A stretch of 61,181 nucleotides of DNA from NCBI GenBank assembly GCA_002425325.1, contig DIMA01000007.1, forward strand, positions 1 through 61,181. Reading direction: 5' to 3'. Positions 45,001-54,000 of this stretch are shown here, in pieces; positions within the stretch are counted from its first letter, which is position 1; each line of letters opens with the position of its first letter. Made by a program: the position numbers. Source of the DNA: Bacillales bacterium UBA5578 (GTDB lineage: Bacteria > Bacillota_I > Bacilli_A > RF39 > UBA660).

Positions 45001-48000
45001 TTCCATCTTTAAAAGCTTCTTTTTTAAATTTAAAATCACTTATTAATCTAACTTCACCTTTAAGTCCATGAGTATTAACTATATCACCAACAAATATAAA
45101 ATCCATAAAACACCTACTTATTTAATTCATACATAATAATACTAGTAGCAACTCCTACATTTAAACTCTCACATTCACTATTCATTGGAATATGAATATA
45201 ACTACTAACATTATCTAAAACTTCTTTACTTACACCATTACCTTCATTACCTATAATAATGGCTATTTTTTCTTTTTCTTTTAAAATATCTATATCATTA
45301 CCACTATCTACTTTAGTAGCACTAACATAATAGCCTAATTCTTTTAATTTATTTATTTCATCTAATATATCTTTAATAACAATATTAATATGAAATAGCA
45401 TACCTTGACTAGCTCTAATAACCTTACTATTATATAAATCAACAGTATTATTACTTAATATAATAGTATCAAATGAAAAAGCTACAGCGCTTCTAATAAT
45501 AGTCCCTAAATTACCAGGATCTTGTATCCCATCAACTATTAAAATTTTGTTACCATATTCTTTTTCTTTTAATTTACTACAAATTCCCATTACTTTTTGA
45601 TGATTATCTAGTTCAGTAATATAATTCATTACTTTATCAGTTACAACTATATTATCTTTTTCTATATTAAAATTATAATCTTCTAAAATAATTACATTAT
45701 TTAAATTATTACTCTTATAAGCTTCTTCTACTAGGTGTTCACCTTCTACTAAGAATAAATTATTTAAATCTCTATATTTCTTTTGATTTAACTTTTTAAT
45801 ATCTTTAATTTTATTATTATCAGTTGAACTATATATCATAAAAAGTCACCTATATCCATTTTATCATAAAATATAATAAATATAAATTAAAAAAATACTT
45901 ATTTAAGTATTTTTTAATCTCTATATTCAAATTCATAGTCCATTATACGAACTGTATCACCATTTTGAATACCCATTTCTTTTAATTTATCATCAATTCC
46001 TAATTTTCTTAACTTATTAGAGAATCTTAAGAATGCTTCGTCAGTAACGAACCAAGTCATTTTATAAATCTTTTCTATCTCATCACCTTTAATTACATAA
46101 GTACCATCATCATCAATAGTAACAGTAAATGGTTGTTCTTGTTTAAATTTATATAAAACATGACTTTCAAATCTTTCTTCTTCATATAAAGGTTTTTTCT
46201 CAATTTTATCTAACATATCTGCTAAAACAATTAATACTTTATCTAAACCTTCACTATACATAGCACTAATTTCATATATAGGTTTATCTACTTTTTTCTT
46301 AAATTCTTCTAAGTTTTCTTTAGCACCTTCTACATCCATTTTATTTGCTATTATAACCATAGGTTTTTCCATAATTTTACTATTAAAGTTTTCTAATTCC
46401 TTATTAATTGTTAAATAATCTTCATATGGATCTCTACCTTCAACAGCTCCCATATCAATGACGTGTGCTATAACACGAGTTCTTTCAATATGTTTTAAGA
46501 ATTTATCACCTAATCCTTCACCTAATGAAGCACCTTCAATCAATCCTGGAAGATCTGCTACTACAAAAGATCTATTATCTTTTGTTTTAACAACACCTAA
46601 ATTAGGATTTAAAGTAGTAAAATGATATGCAGCTATTTTAGGTTTAGCAGCTGATATTTGACTAATTAAAGTACTTTTACCTACACTTGGTAATCCAACT
46701 AATCCAACATCTGCTAATAATTTTAATTCAACTTTTACTTTCTTTTCTTCACCTGGTTCACCATTTTCAGCATAATCTGGTGCTTTATTAGTTCTAGTAA
46801 CAAAGGCCATATTACCTCTACCACCACGACCACCTTGAGCTATTACTGCTCTATCTCCTTTTTTAGTTAAATCTGCTAATACAAAGTTTGTTTCTATATC
46901 TGTTACAACAGTACCAAGAGGAACTTTAACTATTAAATCTGGAGCATTAGCACCATGCATTGCTTTACCTTGACCATGTTCACCGTTTTTAGCTTTATAT
47001 CTTTTTTGATATCTTAAATCTATTAAAGTATTTAAACCCTCATCTACTTCAAAAACAATATTACCACCACGGCCACCATTTCCACCAAATGGTCCACCCA
47101 TTTCAACATATTTTTCACGACGGAAAGCTAAACAACCATTTCCTCCATTACCTGCTTCTAAATCTATTATTACCTCATCAATAAACATAGTATCCCTCTT
47201 TCACTTGAATAATTATAACAAAAAAAAGACTATTTATCTAGTCTTTAGTTTAATATACGATCTATCTTATCCATTATTGTTTTTTCACTAAATGGTTTTT
47301 CAATCATATCAACAACATTATATTCAAATGCTTTATCAATACTTTCTTTTGTAGTATCTCCACTAATAATAATTGTAGGAACAAAAATACCATTTGATTT
47401 AATGTAATCTAATACTCCAAAACCATCGATTCCTGGCATCATTAAATCTAATAATAATAAGTCTGGTTTCATAGAACCTAATTTATTAATACATTCTTGA
47501 CCACTAGTAAGTGAAGTAACTGAATATTTTTCACTACATAATTTTTGTAAATAATTTCTAATAATAACTGAATCATCTACTATAAATACATTTTTCTTTA
47601 ATGGATTAACAGCAACAACAGGTTCTGTTGGTTGTTCTACTGGTGCTTCAACTACAGCAGGTGCTGGTTGTGGAGCAGGCATTTCTGGAATAGATTGTGT
47701 AACAGGAGCCACAGGAGCAACTGGACTTTGTTGTGCTCCCATACTTTCTTCAAATAATCTATTAATGTTATTTTTTACAATTTTTAATTGTAGTGCTACA
47801 TCTTCACTACTTGAATTTATGCTATTATCAAATGTTGCATTTACTTTATTTAATAAATCTCTCATATTTTCTCCTATCTTCCTAAATATTGTTTAATAAC
47901 TTCTAACATTCTATTAACTTCACACATTAACTCATCATAATGATCATTAACATATTCTACATCATTACTCTTACTAGCCATTTCATGATTATAAGCTAAA

Positions 48001-51000: not shown

Positions 51001-54000
51001 TTTAGCAAATGACATATCAGCTTTAGCTAATTTTTTATCATTTATTAAAGCTTTCCATAATGTTGGAACACCTAAAATTAATGTAGGTTTATTTTTTAAT
51101 AATGAAGCTATAAAGATCATTTTATTAAATTGAGGATGTAAGTCTACAGACATTTTAACTGCTAATGCAGTAATAACACTATCTACAAGACCAAATCCAT
51201 GGAATATAGGACAAATTGCTAATAATTCATCACCTTTTTTATAAAGTGGGATTGTATCTCTTAATTGAGAAGTATTAGTAATTACATTTTCGTTAGATAA
51301 AGCAGCTAATTTAGCAGTACCAGATGTACCACCAGTTCTTAATAAAACACAGTTTTCATTTGGTTCATATTTAGCTATATCAGCATCAGTAAAATTATAA
51401 TCACTACCAAAAGCAATTTCATCTTTCCATTTAATAAATATTCCATTATAATCTGGTTTAGCTAAACTACGTTCTAATTCGTCAATTTCTAAACCAATTG
51501 ATTCTTTTAAAACTTTACAATAACCAGGAACAATTTTTTTACATAATTTTAATTTAGTTAATGAAACTTTACCTTTTAATTTTTTAACTTGTTCCTTAGC
51601 CATAAATAAGAATTTAATACCACCAGGAACACCATTCTTAATAGGCATTGAATCAGATGGTGCTACTACAACAACTTTTTCTAATTTAGTTTTATCTAAA
51701 ATTTTAGAAACTTCTTTGTAACACATATCTGCCATAACCATATATTTAGAATTAGTTTTCTTTAATGTATCTAAGATATCATCTCCAGTTAATAATGGGT
51801 GTAACATACTTGCAGTAGCTCCTATTTTATTAGCAGCAAAGAATGCAATAACACCTTCTGGAGTATTAGGCATACAAATAGTAACGACATCACCTTTTTT
51901 AATACCATTTTTCTTTAATGACTTACTAAATGCATCTACTTTATCAAATAATTCTCTAAAAGTAATTTGTTTTCCAAAATATCTTAATGCTAATGAATCC
52001 ATATTACTATAATTATTTAAGTAAATATATTCCCAAATAGCTAAATTTTGCTCATTTGTATTTAATTGATCTATAGTATAAGATTTCATCCATTCTTTAT
52101 CTATAGAAGGTATACCACTTTTAACTGTAATTGGATCTTTAATATGTTGTTCCATCATTGAATTATATGTTTTTATATCTTCAACAACAGTTTCTAACTC
52201 ATCATATTTATATATTCTTTTACTATCTGATTCTAAAGTAGTAGCTAATCTTACATTTTTATTTTCATCTAAAACTGATAAATCATTATCTACTATATAA
52301 CTAAAATTATGAATTTTAATTATTTTAGATTTATTATCATCATTATAGAATAATACATCTTCAAATAAATCTTTGTTAATTCCTAAATATAAATTAACAT
52401 CTTTTTTATTTTCATTTGTATCAATAGTTTCATATAAATTTTCATTTGAAATTAAATATAATGTATGTCCACTTTCTTTTAACTCTTTTAATTTTCTTAA
52501 TACACTATAATCATAACTCTTTAATATATCTAAATTAATTGCTATTTTCACACTATTCCTCCTGTAACAATTTTGTTTTATTTCTTATCTTGTTCCATAC
52601 TTGATAATGTCATTGTTTTAATTTTTTGTGATAATTTTTCATTTGCTTCAAGTAAATCATCTTCTGGTGTAACAAATTGTAATTCCCCTATTTTTAAATA
52701 ACTATATTTGTGTCCATGATATAAAGATACTGGTAAAATGGCAGCACCTGTTTTTTGTGCTAAAGAAACAGTTCCTAATTTAAATGGTAATTGAACTATT
52801 TTTTTACCTTCTTCATTTTTATTTTTTCTAGTACCTTCTGGGAAGATTAATCCAATTTTATCATTAGCTATTTTTAAAGCTAATTCTTCTTCACCTTTTC
52901 TTTTACTTTCATCGTCTTTTCTATCTATAAATACAGCTCCACCTGAGAAATCAAACATTTTACCTCTAATAGTATTTCTAATTGATTCTGCAGCAAATCC
53001 ACAAAATTGACGATTTCCTAATGCTCTACTAATAAAGAATTGATCACGCCAATCTAAATGGTTTGAAGCTATTATAAATCCATCTTGATATGGAATATTT
53101 TCTAAACCTTCTTTTTTTGATCTAAACATAATACTAAATGGTAATAATGTAGCATAATACATAAGTTTAAATCTTTTTTCACTTTTCTTTAATGCTTCCT
53201 CATTAACATTTAATTTTTTAACATATGCATGGTAACTTTTTATATACTTAACTTGTTCTTCTTTAGTTAAACCTTGTCTTTCATCTTTTGATAATCTTTT
53301 ATATTCAGGTATAACTTCTTTAGCTTCTCTTAATTTTCTATATTCAGTATAACAATCTTGCCAACTTTTAACTCTTATTAAATTTTCTCCTTCAATACCT
53401 TTATTATATGGAGCATCAAAGAATAAAATTTTAATACCTCTTTCAGCTAAATATAATGCTACTTCAGGTTTATCTTCGATCATTACATCTACACCTAATT
53501 TTAAACAAGCCATATATTTATCTCTAGGACTATCTGTTTCAGAACAAAATTGAATTGATTTAAAAGGTAACTCATTATCTTTTAAATATTTTCTAAATAA
53601 TCTTCTGTAATAACCACCAAATGGTCCTTTTATTGTAGTAAACATACGTGCTGTTATTTCATGTAATTCAGCACCTTCTTCACTCATTTTAGTGATTACT
53701 TCTTTAGCATCATCACGTAAAGGAGTCTTTCTACAATATTTATCTAAAACTTTTAATCCAAACATATTTTTTTGAAATTTAGAAATTCCAAACATTTCTG
53801 AAGATTCATAAGCATCTGGATTTACAGGTTCTTTCTTAAAGAATTTTCTACCTTCTTCAAGATTAAATTTTGACATATCTGTTAATACACCATCTGCATC
53901 TATTCCTACTACGAATCTTTCCATTAAAACCACCCTAACTATCTTATTCAAAGATATCTCTTATAATTATACTATATTTTTATAAGTAAAATCAATGAAT

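What a model noticed while it worked through the whole genome (the two positions that open the first line are those of the whole stretch)
47245..53924. Membrane lipids without PlsX, PlsY, PlsB, ACP or fatty-acid kinase: acyl-CoA ligases and PlsC-family enzymes instead
The genome lacks plsX, plsY, acyl carrier protein, fab and fak genes yet keeps gpsA, cdsA, pgsA and pss/psd, and has five PlsC-family acyltransferases, two beside long-chain acyl-CoA ligases and hybrid sensor kinases, one fused to an HAD phosphatase. It acylates glycerol-3-phosphate from scavenged fatty acids through acyl-CoA with PlsC-type enzymes, the HAD fusion making mono- or diacylglycerol as plant GPAT4/6 do. New would be a whole Bacillota order without the acyl-phosphate route thought universal in the phylum.
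Evidence so far: PlsY 0 of 81 RF39 genomes but 37 of 37 other genomes of the class, mycoplasma-like ones included; PlsX 0 of 41, DegV/FakB 3 of 41; no PP-binding, Dak2 rows here. Loci: C14 kinase-ligase-HAD/PlsC fusion, C22:27419-32411, C27:2379-4664 (two PlsC plus CDP-alcohol transferase; in G003 with the ligase between them, call 78). The fusion recurs beside the same kinase in 2 of 40 family genomes. AMP-binding ligase in 100% of the genus, 84% of the order.
(Added by a program. Inside this text positions count along the whole contig: contig position 1 is position 1 of the stretch shown here. "Call 12" and the like, gene names such as g00115 and contig names such as C1 are that model's own, and its searches are not shown. 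The text may have been shortened before it was handed on; [...] marks where a part breaks off. The agent that wrote the report below was given it as the finding of a first reader that could run no searches.)

Follow-up and report, generated by a model that had tools for sequence, protein, structure and literature searches.

The report
Gut bacteria missing first membrane step
No genome searched from this large order of small-genome gut bacteria has the standard enzymes that start membrane-lipid synthesis, few encode the last step of coenzyme A synthesis, yet nearly all keep the later lipid steps, so they likely build membranes from scavenged lipid parts, with an optional add-on cassette predicted to attach scavenged fatty acids.

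Summary
The absence is real. PlsY was found in 0 of 251 order genomes (all at least 90% complete) against 132 of 136 other class genomes; PlsX in 0 of 151; DegV in 2 of 101. The four genes at C14 and the five PlsC-family genes are confirmed. The acyl-CoA reading holds for only part of the order. A conserved plsCa-fadD-plsCb cassette of two distinct paralogues, often linked to a CDP-alcohol transferase, likely makes phosphatidic acid. But 89 of 251 genomes have no PlsC-family gene, and 18 of 151 lack ligase too; 17 of those 18 keep cdsA. New here: CoaE occurs in only 12 of 141 genomes, although PFOR, which needs CoA, is in 5 of 5. So CoA, and likely the diacylglycerol backbone, would be imported. 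The C14 locus is a separate HAD + ligase + PlsC + hybrid-kinase module, likely sensor-linked rather than the bulk route. 'Universal in the phylum' overstates: some mycoplasma-like genomes also lack PlsY, and a 2020 supplementary table already shows the depletion without comment. Nothing has been assayed.

The parts
52578..53951 (-). HAD phosphatase (NT5C-like) fused to a PlsC-family acyltransferase, 457 aa; both catalytic sites intact
   Evidence: Pfam PF06941 res 12-201 and PF01553 res 279-410. In a 79-sequence alignment D20, K145, D160, H298, D303 are invariant and D18, T100 are at least 90% conserved. AlphaFold pLDDT 93.7, pTM 0.92. Foldseek top hits: T. maritima PlsC 5KYM and deoxyribonucleotidases
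50245..52551 (-). Long-chain acyl-CoA ligase-like adenylating enzyme, 768 aa
   Evidence: PF00501 + PF13193; best NCBIfam hits are long-chain-fatty-acid--CoA ligases, all below their cut-offs; P-loop, TGD and C-terminal Lys motifs present
52102..52551 (-). N-terminal extension of the ligase (res 1-150), likely a decayed HAD domain
   Evidence: Relatives G097 and G120 carry an intact HAD at this place; weak BLAST similarity to them (E 2e-7 and 4e-5 in a 10-sequence set, partly in the linker); profile tests negative
47874..50165 (-). Hybrid sensor histidine kinase, about 7 predicted N-terminal membrane helices, HisKA-HATPase-REC-Hpt
   Evidence: Pfam (Hpt below cut-off); sensor domain 40-47% identical to kinases beside the related ligase loci in L163, G035, G050, G150, G090; weak HisKA_7TM look-alike, score 0.88
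47245..47865 (-). Response-regulator receiver protein with a Pro/Val-rich N-terminal half and no output domain
   Evidence: PF00072 res 93-201; same gene order in L163
53966..53995 (-). Sigma-70-like promoter candidate upstream of the four-gene run (weak)
   Evidence: 10 of 12 consensus matches; promoter-like sites in the region are not above shuffles, 45 vs 58.9. Gaps of 26, 79 and 8 nt between the genes fit one operon

Best explanation
This order lacks the acyl-phosphate entry to membrane synthesis (PlsX, PlsY, fatty-acid kinase, housekeeping ACP) and most members lack CoaE, yet it keeps CdsA and PgsA, so it likely builds its membrane from scavenged parts, taking in ready-made phosphatidic acid or diacylglycerol and intact CoA. 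Steps: (1) shown: the losses and the retention of cdsA/pgsA. (2) inferred, whole order: an imported diacyl backbone enters at PA, directly or through a DgkA/DgkB-type kinase, and CdsA, PgsA and (where present) PssA/Psd set the head group. (3) inferred, roughly 40% of genomes: an accessory plsCa-fadD-plsCb cassette activates scavenged fatty acids to acyl-CoA on imported CoA, and its two PlsC-family paralogues acylate GpsA-made glycerol-3-phosphate in turn, with no PlsB or PlsY. (4) inferred, the flagged C14 locus: a separate module in which ligase, acyltransferase and HAD phosphatase make a dephosphorylated acylglycerol, linked to its own membrane sensor kinase; it is likely not the bulk route.
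For: Losses: PlsY 0 of 251 vs 132 of 136; PlsX 0 of 151; DegV 2 of 101; Dak2 0 of 5, including a single-contig genome; ketoacyl synthase 0 of 5. Retention: cdsA 144 of 151 over cut-off; CDP-alcohol transferase 5 of 5. Import needed: 89 of 251 lack PF01553 (8); 18 of 151 lack both PF01553 and ligase, 17 of these keep cdsA, and 12 of the 13 within the first 101 genomes keep DgkA. G083 (792 kb, all but about 1.1 kb fetched) has no PlsC-like frame even with an order-specific profile, and no other acyltransferase among 120 hand-picked proteins of its 814 ORFs. CoA: CoaE 12 of 141; CoaB 0 of 5; CoaD 0 of 5 over cut-off; archaeal-type DUF359 kinase 0 of 5; yet PFOR 5 of 5 and Pta 2 of 5. Cassette: plsCa-fadD-plsCb in 8 of 15 loci (picked for paired hits) and in 3 of 3 same-genus genomes, there behind a CDP-alcohol transferase. 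The upstream copies form one supported clade (98/93); both types keep HX4D. All 58 genomes with two or more PlsC-family hits, the best under E 1e-20, have a ligase. Natural ligase-PlsC and CDP-transferase-PlsC fusions exist. G215 puts gpsA and a DAG-kinase-like gene (named by eye) beside the pair. Precedents for PlsC-family G3P acylation: mycobacterial PlsM with acyl-CoA (PMC10593935 passages) and C. butyricum PlsD (PMC1950310 passage). Module: 2 of 2 ligases lie beside 2 of 2 hybrid kinases in G000 and G083 has neither; the HAD domain is fused to PlsC in G000, G035, G050, G150, L163 and to the ligase in G097, G120.
Against: No enzyme was assayed and no importer for PA, DAG or CoA was identified. 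The main dgkA sits in the ybeY-dgkA-cdd-era run, and B. subtilis DgkA is an undecaprenol kinase (PMC5723303 passages). Five genomes keep cdsA with neither PlsC nor DgkA (G007, G043, G045, G058, G094). DgkA is no commoner without PlsC (28 of 36) than with it (55 of 65). An unrecognised acyltransferase cannot be excluded: only one PlsC-free genome was read through, and only 120 of its 814 ORFs went to Pfam. Both cassette paralogues look like ordinary sn-2 PlsC (TIGR00530, 5KYM), and the downstream clade has weak support (86/49). In G000 itself the C27 pair has no ligase between its members. A published table gives plsY 15% and plsX 13% in 'gut lineage 1', of which RF39 is a part; this likely reflects other lineages or lower-quality bins, but I could not resolve it. 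All genomes are 90-100% complete assemblies, and kin are not independent.
Confidence: 0.5

Rival explanations
1. One reading: acyl-CoA ligases and PlsC-family enzymes, including the C14 fusion, are the general replacement for PlsX/PlsY; genomes without them are incomplete or carry undetected divergent copies.
For: Ligase in 129 of 151; PF01553 in 162 of 251 (8); conserved cassette; gpsA in 4 of 5.
Against: cdsA is recovered in 95% of the same genomes, so 35% missing PlsC is not incompleteness. An order-specific profile finds nothing in G083. 18 of 151 lack both genes. Some PF01553 and ligase hits belong to accessory ligase-ACP cassettes.
Confidence: 0.12
2. All members share an unrecognised glycerol-3-phosphate acyltransferase or transacylase of a new family; nothing beyond fatty acids or lysolipids needs importing.
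For: cdsA and pgsA are kept almost everywhere; gpsA is kept in 3 of 4 PlsC-free genomes; many proteins of G083 had no Pfam match; a stand-alone PF00198 CAT-fold protein lies next to a ligase in four PlsC-poor genomes.
Against: G083 has no ligase, Fak or (by motif and gene order) ACP to activate a fatty acid. The PF00198 proteins have Glu where the catalytic His is expected (motif recalled) and are absent from G000 and G083 (95). G3P is needed by PgsA anyway.
Confidence: 0.18
3. The PlsC + ligase genes re-acylate scavenged lysophospholipids, like a split E. coli Aas, rather than acylating glycerol-3-phosphate.
For: Both parts hit the Aas-type model PRK08633 far below cut-off; ligase-PlsC fusions exist; an alpha/beta hydrolase follows pss-psd in G000; lysolipids are abundant in gut contents (recalled).
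Against: One acyltransferase would suffice, yet two distinct paralogues are kept in fixed order; linkage to gpsA and CDP-alcohol transferase points to the PA route; Aas uses an ACP (recalled), which is absent.
Confidence: 0.15
4. The C14 and C22 modules are signal synthase-receptor pairs: they make an acylglycerol-like autoinducer, or turn an external fatty acid into a signal, read by the adjacent kinase, with no role in bulk membrane.
For: Strict ligase-kinase adjacency in G000; tandem ligase-kinase pairs without PlsC in G028 and G020; sensor domains of the HAD-linked loci cluster at 40-47% identity; the phosphatase would divert product from CdsA. Xanthomonas rpfB-rpfC is a recalled analogue.
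Against: No ligand data; no family match for the sensor beyond a weak HisKA_7TM look-alike; G000's C27 pair needs a ligase from one of these loci, and the C22 ligase is closer to cassette ligases (45-46%) than the C14 one (33-35%).
Confidence: 0.35
5. No thiol carrier is used: the ligase hands acyl-AMP straight to the PlsC-family enzymes.
For: Only 3 of 52 genomes with paired strong PlsC hits have CoaE; no housekeeping ACP; tight operon order and ligase-PlsC fusions.
Against: PFOR and Pta show that CoA is likely present in these cells; the ligases score best as acyl-CoA ligases; known PlsC enzymes use thioesters.
Confidence: 0.08

Closest known systems
PlsX/PlsY/PlsC and FakA/FakB acyl-phosphate route of Bacillota
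   Same: Same downstream CdsA, PgsA, PssA/Psd steps; PlsC-family fold
   Different: PlsX, PlsY, Dak2 and nearly all DegV not found. Nayfach 2019 (PMC6784871, passages) reported loss of fatty-acid synthesis in RF39 and suggested this route (its ref. 31); the genes for it are not found
Mycobacterial PlsM/PlsB2 route (PMC10593935, passages)
   Same: No PlsX/PlsY; acyl-CoA donors; a PlsC-type enzyme (PlsM) that acylates G3P
   Different: Mycobacteria make their own acyl-CoA and have PlsB2; here there is no PlsB, no fatty-acid synthesis and mostly no CoaE; donor use untested
Clostridium butyricum PlsD (via PMC1950310, passage; original paper not seen)
   Same: PlsC homologue from a Bacillota species that replaces PlsB
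   Different: Role in its host stated as unclear; orthology to PlsCa or PlsCb not tested
Plant GPAT4/6/8 (bioRxiv 2024.03.13.584743, passages)
   Same: Phosphatase + acyltransferase in one chain, with intact catalytic residues
   Different: The HAD here is NT5C-like, can be fused to the ligase instead, and sits beside a sensor kinase; sn-2 specificity and monoacylglycerol product untested; likely convergent
Lipid- and cofactor-scavenging reduced genomes (hemoplasmas, Hepatoplasma; Patescibacteria recalled)
   Same: Low plsX/plsY/plsC frequencies in hemoplasmas and Hepatoplasma; coaE near 0 in Ureaplasma and Phytoplasma (Wang 2020 supplement rows)
   Different: This order keeps cdsA almost universally, has wall and sporulation genes, and carries a patchy ligase-PlsC cassette
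E. coli Aas (2-acyl-GPE acyltransferase/acyl-ACP synthetase)
   Same: PlsC domain paired with an adenylating domain
   Different: Scores far below cut-off; separate genes, two PlsC paralogues, no ACP

Membership tests
Acyl-phosphate route (PlsX/PlsY/Fak) | PlsY (PF02660) present | tested here: not met
   0 of 251; control 132 of 136
Acyl-phosphate route (PlsX/PlsY/Fak) | PlsX (PF02504) present | tested here: not met
   0 of 151
Acyl-phosphate route (PlsX/PlsY/Fak) | FakA (Dak2) and FakB (DegV) present | tested here: not met
   Dak2 0 of 5; DegV 2 of 101
PlsC / LPLAT superfamily (PF01553) | HX4D and FPEG-type motifs, PlsC fold | tested here: met
   All five G000 proteins over the Pfam cut-off; motifs in alignment; fold match 5KYM for the fusion
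PlsB-type GPAT | Match to PlsB models, large multidomain protein | tested here: not met
   No PlsB model among NCBIfam hits; lengths 194-457 aa
PlsM/PlsD-like PlsC-family GPAT | Acylates glycerol-3-phosphate | not testable with these tools
   Needs assay or plsB complementation
PlsM/PlsD-like PlsC-family GPAT | Orthology to PlsM or PlsD | not tested
   Reference sequences were not fetched; the tree holds only order members
Long-chain acyl-CoA ligase (FadD) | Adenylation motifs and best match to FACL models | tested here: met
   no model reaches its cut-off
Long-chain acyl-CoA ligase (FadD) | Uses CoA and long-chain fatty acids | not testable with these tools
   CoA synthesis genes mostly missing; CoA-using enzymes present
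Plant GPAT4/6/8 | Active phosphatase domain fused to the acyltransferase | tested here: met
   HAD motifs I-IV conserved in 79 sequences
Plant GPAT4/6/8 | Homology to the land-plant GPAT clade | tested here: inconclusive
   HAD matches NT5C; no direct comparison with plant sequences was run
Plant GPAT4/6/8 | sn-2 acylation giving monoacylglycerol | not testable with these tools
   Needs assay
Aas | Single PlsC-ligase chain scoring over the family cut-off | tested here: not met
   PRK08633 at most 234 bits in G000 vs cut-off 1221
E. coli-type DAG kinase DgkA | PF01219 member that phosphorylates DAG | tested here: inconclusive
   Family in 83 of 101; context of the Bacillus undecaprenol kinase; a second G000 copy lies directly upstream of a GDPD-like gene (62, 103)

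The most novel reading that the evidence does not exclude
A whole order of walled gut bacteria lives off other cells' membranes and cofactors: a third have no recognisable glycerolipid acyltransferase at all, nearly all lack CoaE, and they take phosphatidic acid or diacylglycerol and intact CoA from neighbours, re-heading the lipid with CdsA and PgsA. Where acylation was regained, two PlsC paralogues form a PlsB-free, PlsY-free route to phosphatidic acid, possibly fed by acyl-AMP, and a HAD-ligase-acyltransferase-kinase module makes and senses an acylglycerol signal.
Probability: 0.25. Interest if true: 0.9.

Novelty: new variant of a known kind. Interest (0 to 1): 0.7.

Why it matters
RF39 is a common gut lineage described as uncultured in the papers read. 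The one published guess for how it gets membrane lipid, the fatty-acid kinase route, needs genes that are not found. The data give direct cultivation leads: supply phosphatidic acid, diacylglycerol or phospholipid vesicles and intact CoA, or a partner bacterium, not just fatty acids and pantothenate. They also give a small testable enzyme set (PlsCa, FadD, PlsCb) that would be a route to phosphatidic acid with neither PlsB nor PlsY. A 2023 paper lists only archaea, eukaryotes, Xanthomonadales and mycobacteria as lacking plsX/plsY.

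Tried and rejected
Zn-dependent phospholipase C family (PF00882) as the core salvage step: found in G083 and 73 of 126 genomes (67), metal ligands conserved, but the long form is not enriched in PlsC-free genomes (21 of 45 vs 31 of 81, Fisher p 0.45, kin not independent), it is absent from G000, and it lies beside a SpoIID-domain gene (66, 70): rejected. 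Soluble DAG kinase DgkB: 1 of 5 (14), not core. Stand-alone PF00198 protein as core acyltransferase: absent from G000 and G083, next to a ligase in only 1 of 10 metagenome loci by my motif tags (93, 95): kept as a lead only. Incompleteness as the cause of missing PlsC: rejected because cdsA is recovered in 144 of 151. Alternative dephospho-CoA kinase DUF359: 0 of 5 (85). Decayed-HAD reading of the ligase extension: hhalign 0.8% (56) and HMM E 16 (95) are negative; only synteny and weak BLAST support it. The 391-aa 'open frame' in G068 is two adjacent genes with a stop between them, not a fusion (29). Expression: RNA-library contigs from one run cover pieces of the fusion and ligase (80), which does not show transcription; run X2 is a small share and gives no evidence. 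Promoter and terminator scans were not above shuffles (82). Contact structures: 14 prepilin-like ORFs in G083 but 0 in G000 by a simple motif (103), so no general support for cell contact. The phylum-wide PlsY search did not reach Clostridia (38). Literature searches with no hit: RF39 + plsY (3), RF39 + dephospho-CoA kinase (58), hyopneumoniae + plsY + ACP + flocculare (43). Earlier-findings look-ups were empty. No complex prediction was run, as no binding is claimed.

Full report
Observation. The window is G000:C14. Four minus-strand genes lie at 47245-53951: a HAD-PlsC fusion, an AMP-binding ligase, a hybrid kinase and a receiver protein. No N runs fall in the locus. Contigs from other runs match it closely, and one bridges the kinase-ligase junction. 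An uncultured Bacilli MAG has the same gene order (L163). G000 has five PF01553 genes, two ligases, gpsA, cdsA, three CDP-alcohol transferases and psd. It has no PlsY, PlsX, DegV, Dak2, PP-binding or ketoacyl-synthase match.

Order-wide test. PlsY was found in 0 of 251 order genomes, all at least 90% complete, against 132 of 136 other class genomes and 249 of 256 in an overlapping larger sample; genomes the tool could not score (one, two) are left out. PlsX was found in 0 of 151 and DegV in 2 of 101. PP-binding was found in 12 of 101; the five loci I printed are accessory cassettes, four of ligase-ACP-PPTase type and one beside an MBOAT-like gene, named by eye. In G000 and G083 the genes next to rnc, recG, parE, der and mutM, where Bacilli usually keep these genes (recalled), show no stand-in. 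The loss is real. It is not unique: three single-contig mycoplasma-like genomes of one genus also lack PlsY, and the sample never reached Clostridia.

The acyl-CoA cassette. Of 15 loci fetched for paired PlsC hits or fusions, 8 read plsCa-fadD-plsCb, one plsCa-plsCb-fadD, and one plsCa-fadD-plsCb-fadD-plsCb. All three same-genus genomes carry CDP-alcohol transferase-plsCa-fadD-plsCb, while G000's C27 copy lacks the ligase. In a 33-protein tree the upstream copies form one clade (98/93) and the downstream copies a weakly supported one (86/49) with an HX4D-Q signature that the fusion shares; G000's C7, C22 and C14 proteins are long branches. Among the first 151 genomes, 58 have two or more PF01553 hits with the best under E 1e-20, and all 58 have a ligase. 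Natural ligase-PlsC and CDP-transferase-PlsC fusions occur among PlsCb relatives. Two conserved paralogues around one ligase fit two acylations of G3P. PlsM (PMC10593935, passages) and PlsD (PMC1950310, passages) show that PlsC-family enzymes can acylate G3P. This step is inferred.

Why it cannot be the whole answer. 89 of 251 genomes have no PF01553 gene, while cdsA is over cut-off in 144 of 151. Of 151, 53 lack PlsC and 49 of those keep cdsA; 18 lack ligase too and 17 of them keep cdsA. I read one such genome, G083, almost whole. A profile built from 41 order PlsC stretches finds nothing (best E 0.32; remaining pieces). Pfam on 120 hand-picked proteins of 814 ORFs found PgpA, GDPD, a GDSL and an alpha/beta hydrolase, an MMPL and a VTT protein, but no acyltransferase. 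CdsA needs PA, so these cells likely import it or DAG. DgkA is in 83 of 101 genomes and in 12 of 13 that lack both PlsC and ligase. Against this, its context is that of the Bacillus undecaprenol kinase (PMC5723303 passages), it is not enriched without PlsC (28 of 36 vs 55 of 65), and five genomes keep cdsA with neither. The entry point stays open.

CoA. CoaE is in 12 of 141 genomes. Six of the eight hit loci I printed (of ten returned) are a LysR-coaE-coaD cassette scattered over genera, with neighbours named by eye. CoaB was found in 0 of 5, CoaD in 0 of 5 over cut-off, DUF359 in 0 of 5, while PFOR is in 5 of 5 and Pta in 2 of 5. Only 3 of 52 genomes with paired strong PlsC hits have CoaE. 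So CoA is likely used but taken up whole, which makes the acyl-CoA route depend on a second import and leaves direct acyl-AMP transfer as a minor rival.

The flagged locus. The fusion belongs to a family of 145 proteins at E up to 1e-20, one labelled Ruminococcus. In 79 aligned sequences the HAD motifs and HX4D/FPEG are conserved. The model is confident (pLDDT 93.7) and matches PlsC and deoxyribonucleotidases. The fusion sits with a ligase and a hybrid kinase in G035, G050, G150 and L163. In G097 the HAD is fused to the ligase, followed by PlsC and the start of a kinase-like gene; G120 has the same HAD-ligase at a contig end. G000 has two hybrid kinases and two ligases, paired 2 of 2; G083 has neither. 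Ligase-kinase tandems without PlsC occur in G028 and G020. A phosphatase would pull product away from CdsA. I read this as a sensor-linked module making MAG or DAG, either a regulated side lipid or a signal, not the bulk route.

Literature. Nayfach 2019 (PMC6784871, passages; three small supplements held, no hits; its large tables were not among them and may bear on this) reported loss of fatty-acid synthesis in RF39 and suggested exogenous fatty-acid use by the route of its ref. 31. Wang 2020 (PMC7301438, passages; supplement rows) never names plsX or plsY in the text, but its table gives gut lineage 1, which includes RF39, plsX 13%, plsY 15%, acpP 18%, coaE 2%, and low values in hemoplasmas and Hepatoplasma. 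Its cdsA (13%) and fadD (2%) values are far below my profile counts, so that table is a rough guide. The HiFi preprint (10.1101/2022.02.09.479829, passages) has no lipid terms. Plant GPAT4/6/8 were read in passages of bioRxiv 2024.03.13.584743. Searches for RF39 + plsY and RF39 + dephospho-CoA kinase found nothing. The library lacks most subscription papers.

Verdict. Observation confirmed, interpretation partly supported. The loss of the acyl-phosphate route is near certain for the genomes searched. The two-PlsC cassette as a PA route is about 0.55 likely where present. The full picture of scavenged backbone plus CoA with accessory cassettes is about 0.5. New variant of a known kind; interest 0.7.

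Noticed in passing
order-wide; L146-L151, L154: CoaE in only 12 of 141 genomes, mostly in a scattered LysR-coaE-coaD-hydrolase cassette, although PFOR is kept: likely auxotrophy for whole CoA.
   Followed up: partly
G000:C27:24474-25785 (-): A second dgkA copy lies directly upstream of a glycerophosphodiester phosphodiesterase-like gene, a possible lipid-salvage pair.
   Followed up: partly
G000:C10:70249-72475 (L087): pssA-psd is followed at once by an alpha/beta hydrolase, possibly a lysophospholipase or monoacylglycerol lipase.
   Followed up: partly
L204:4533-5393, L208:6664-7542, L211:10455-11312, L212:6274-7155: Stand-alone 2-oxoacid-dehydrogenase E2 catalytic-domain proteins with Glu at the usual His position, adjacent to acyl-CoA ligases in PlsC-poor genomes.
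   Followed up: partly
L205 (G028:C3), L214 (G020:C1): Ligase-hybrid kinase pairs, tandem in G028, without any acyltransferase: a possible fatty-acid sensing unit.
   Followed up: no
G010: A 0.8 Mb genome rated 100% complete lacks cdsA, dgkA, PlsC, PlsY and ligase: possibly no phospholipid synthesis at all.
   Followed up: no
G401, G426, G500: Three single-contig genomes of one mycoplasma-like genus lack PlsY, while four congeners have it.
   Followed up: no
L164-L193: A conserved 300-345 aa PF00882 protein with intact metal ligands and no membrane helix, usually beside a SpoIID-domain gene; substrate unknown.
   Followed up: partly
L117 (G029), L206 (G093): PAP2 phosphatase-DgkA fusions as second dgkA copies (named by motif).
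   Followed up: no
G000:C19:24981-25970 and C16:3365-4351: Two mraY-like paralogues in one 1.2 Mb genome.
   Followed up: no
G083 (L049-L084): 14 prepilin-like ORFs by motif, against 0 in G000.
   Followed up: no
window 54071-56628 (-): A three-gene ABC-2 exporter lies just upstream of the fusion; it is not there in L163, so the link is likely not conserved.
   Followed up: partly
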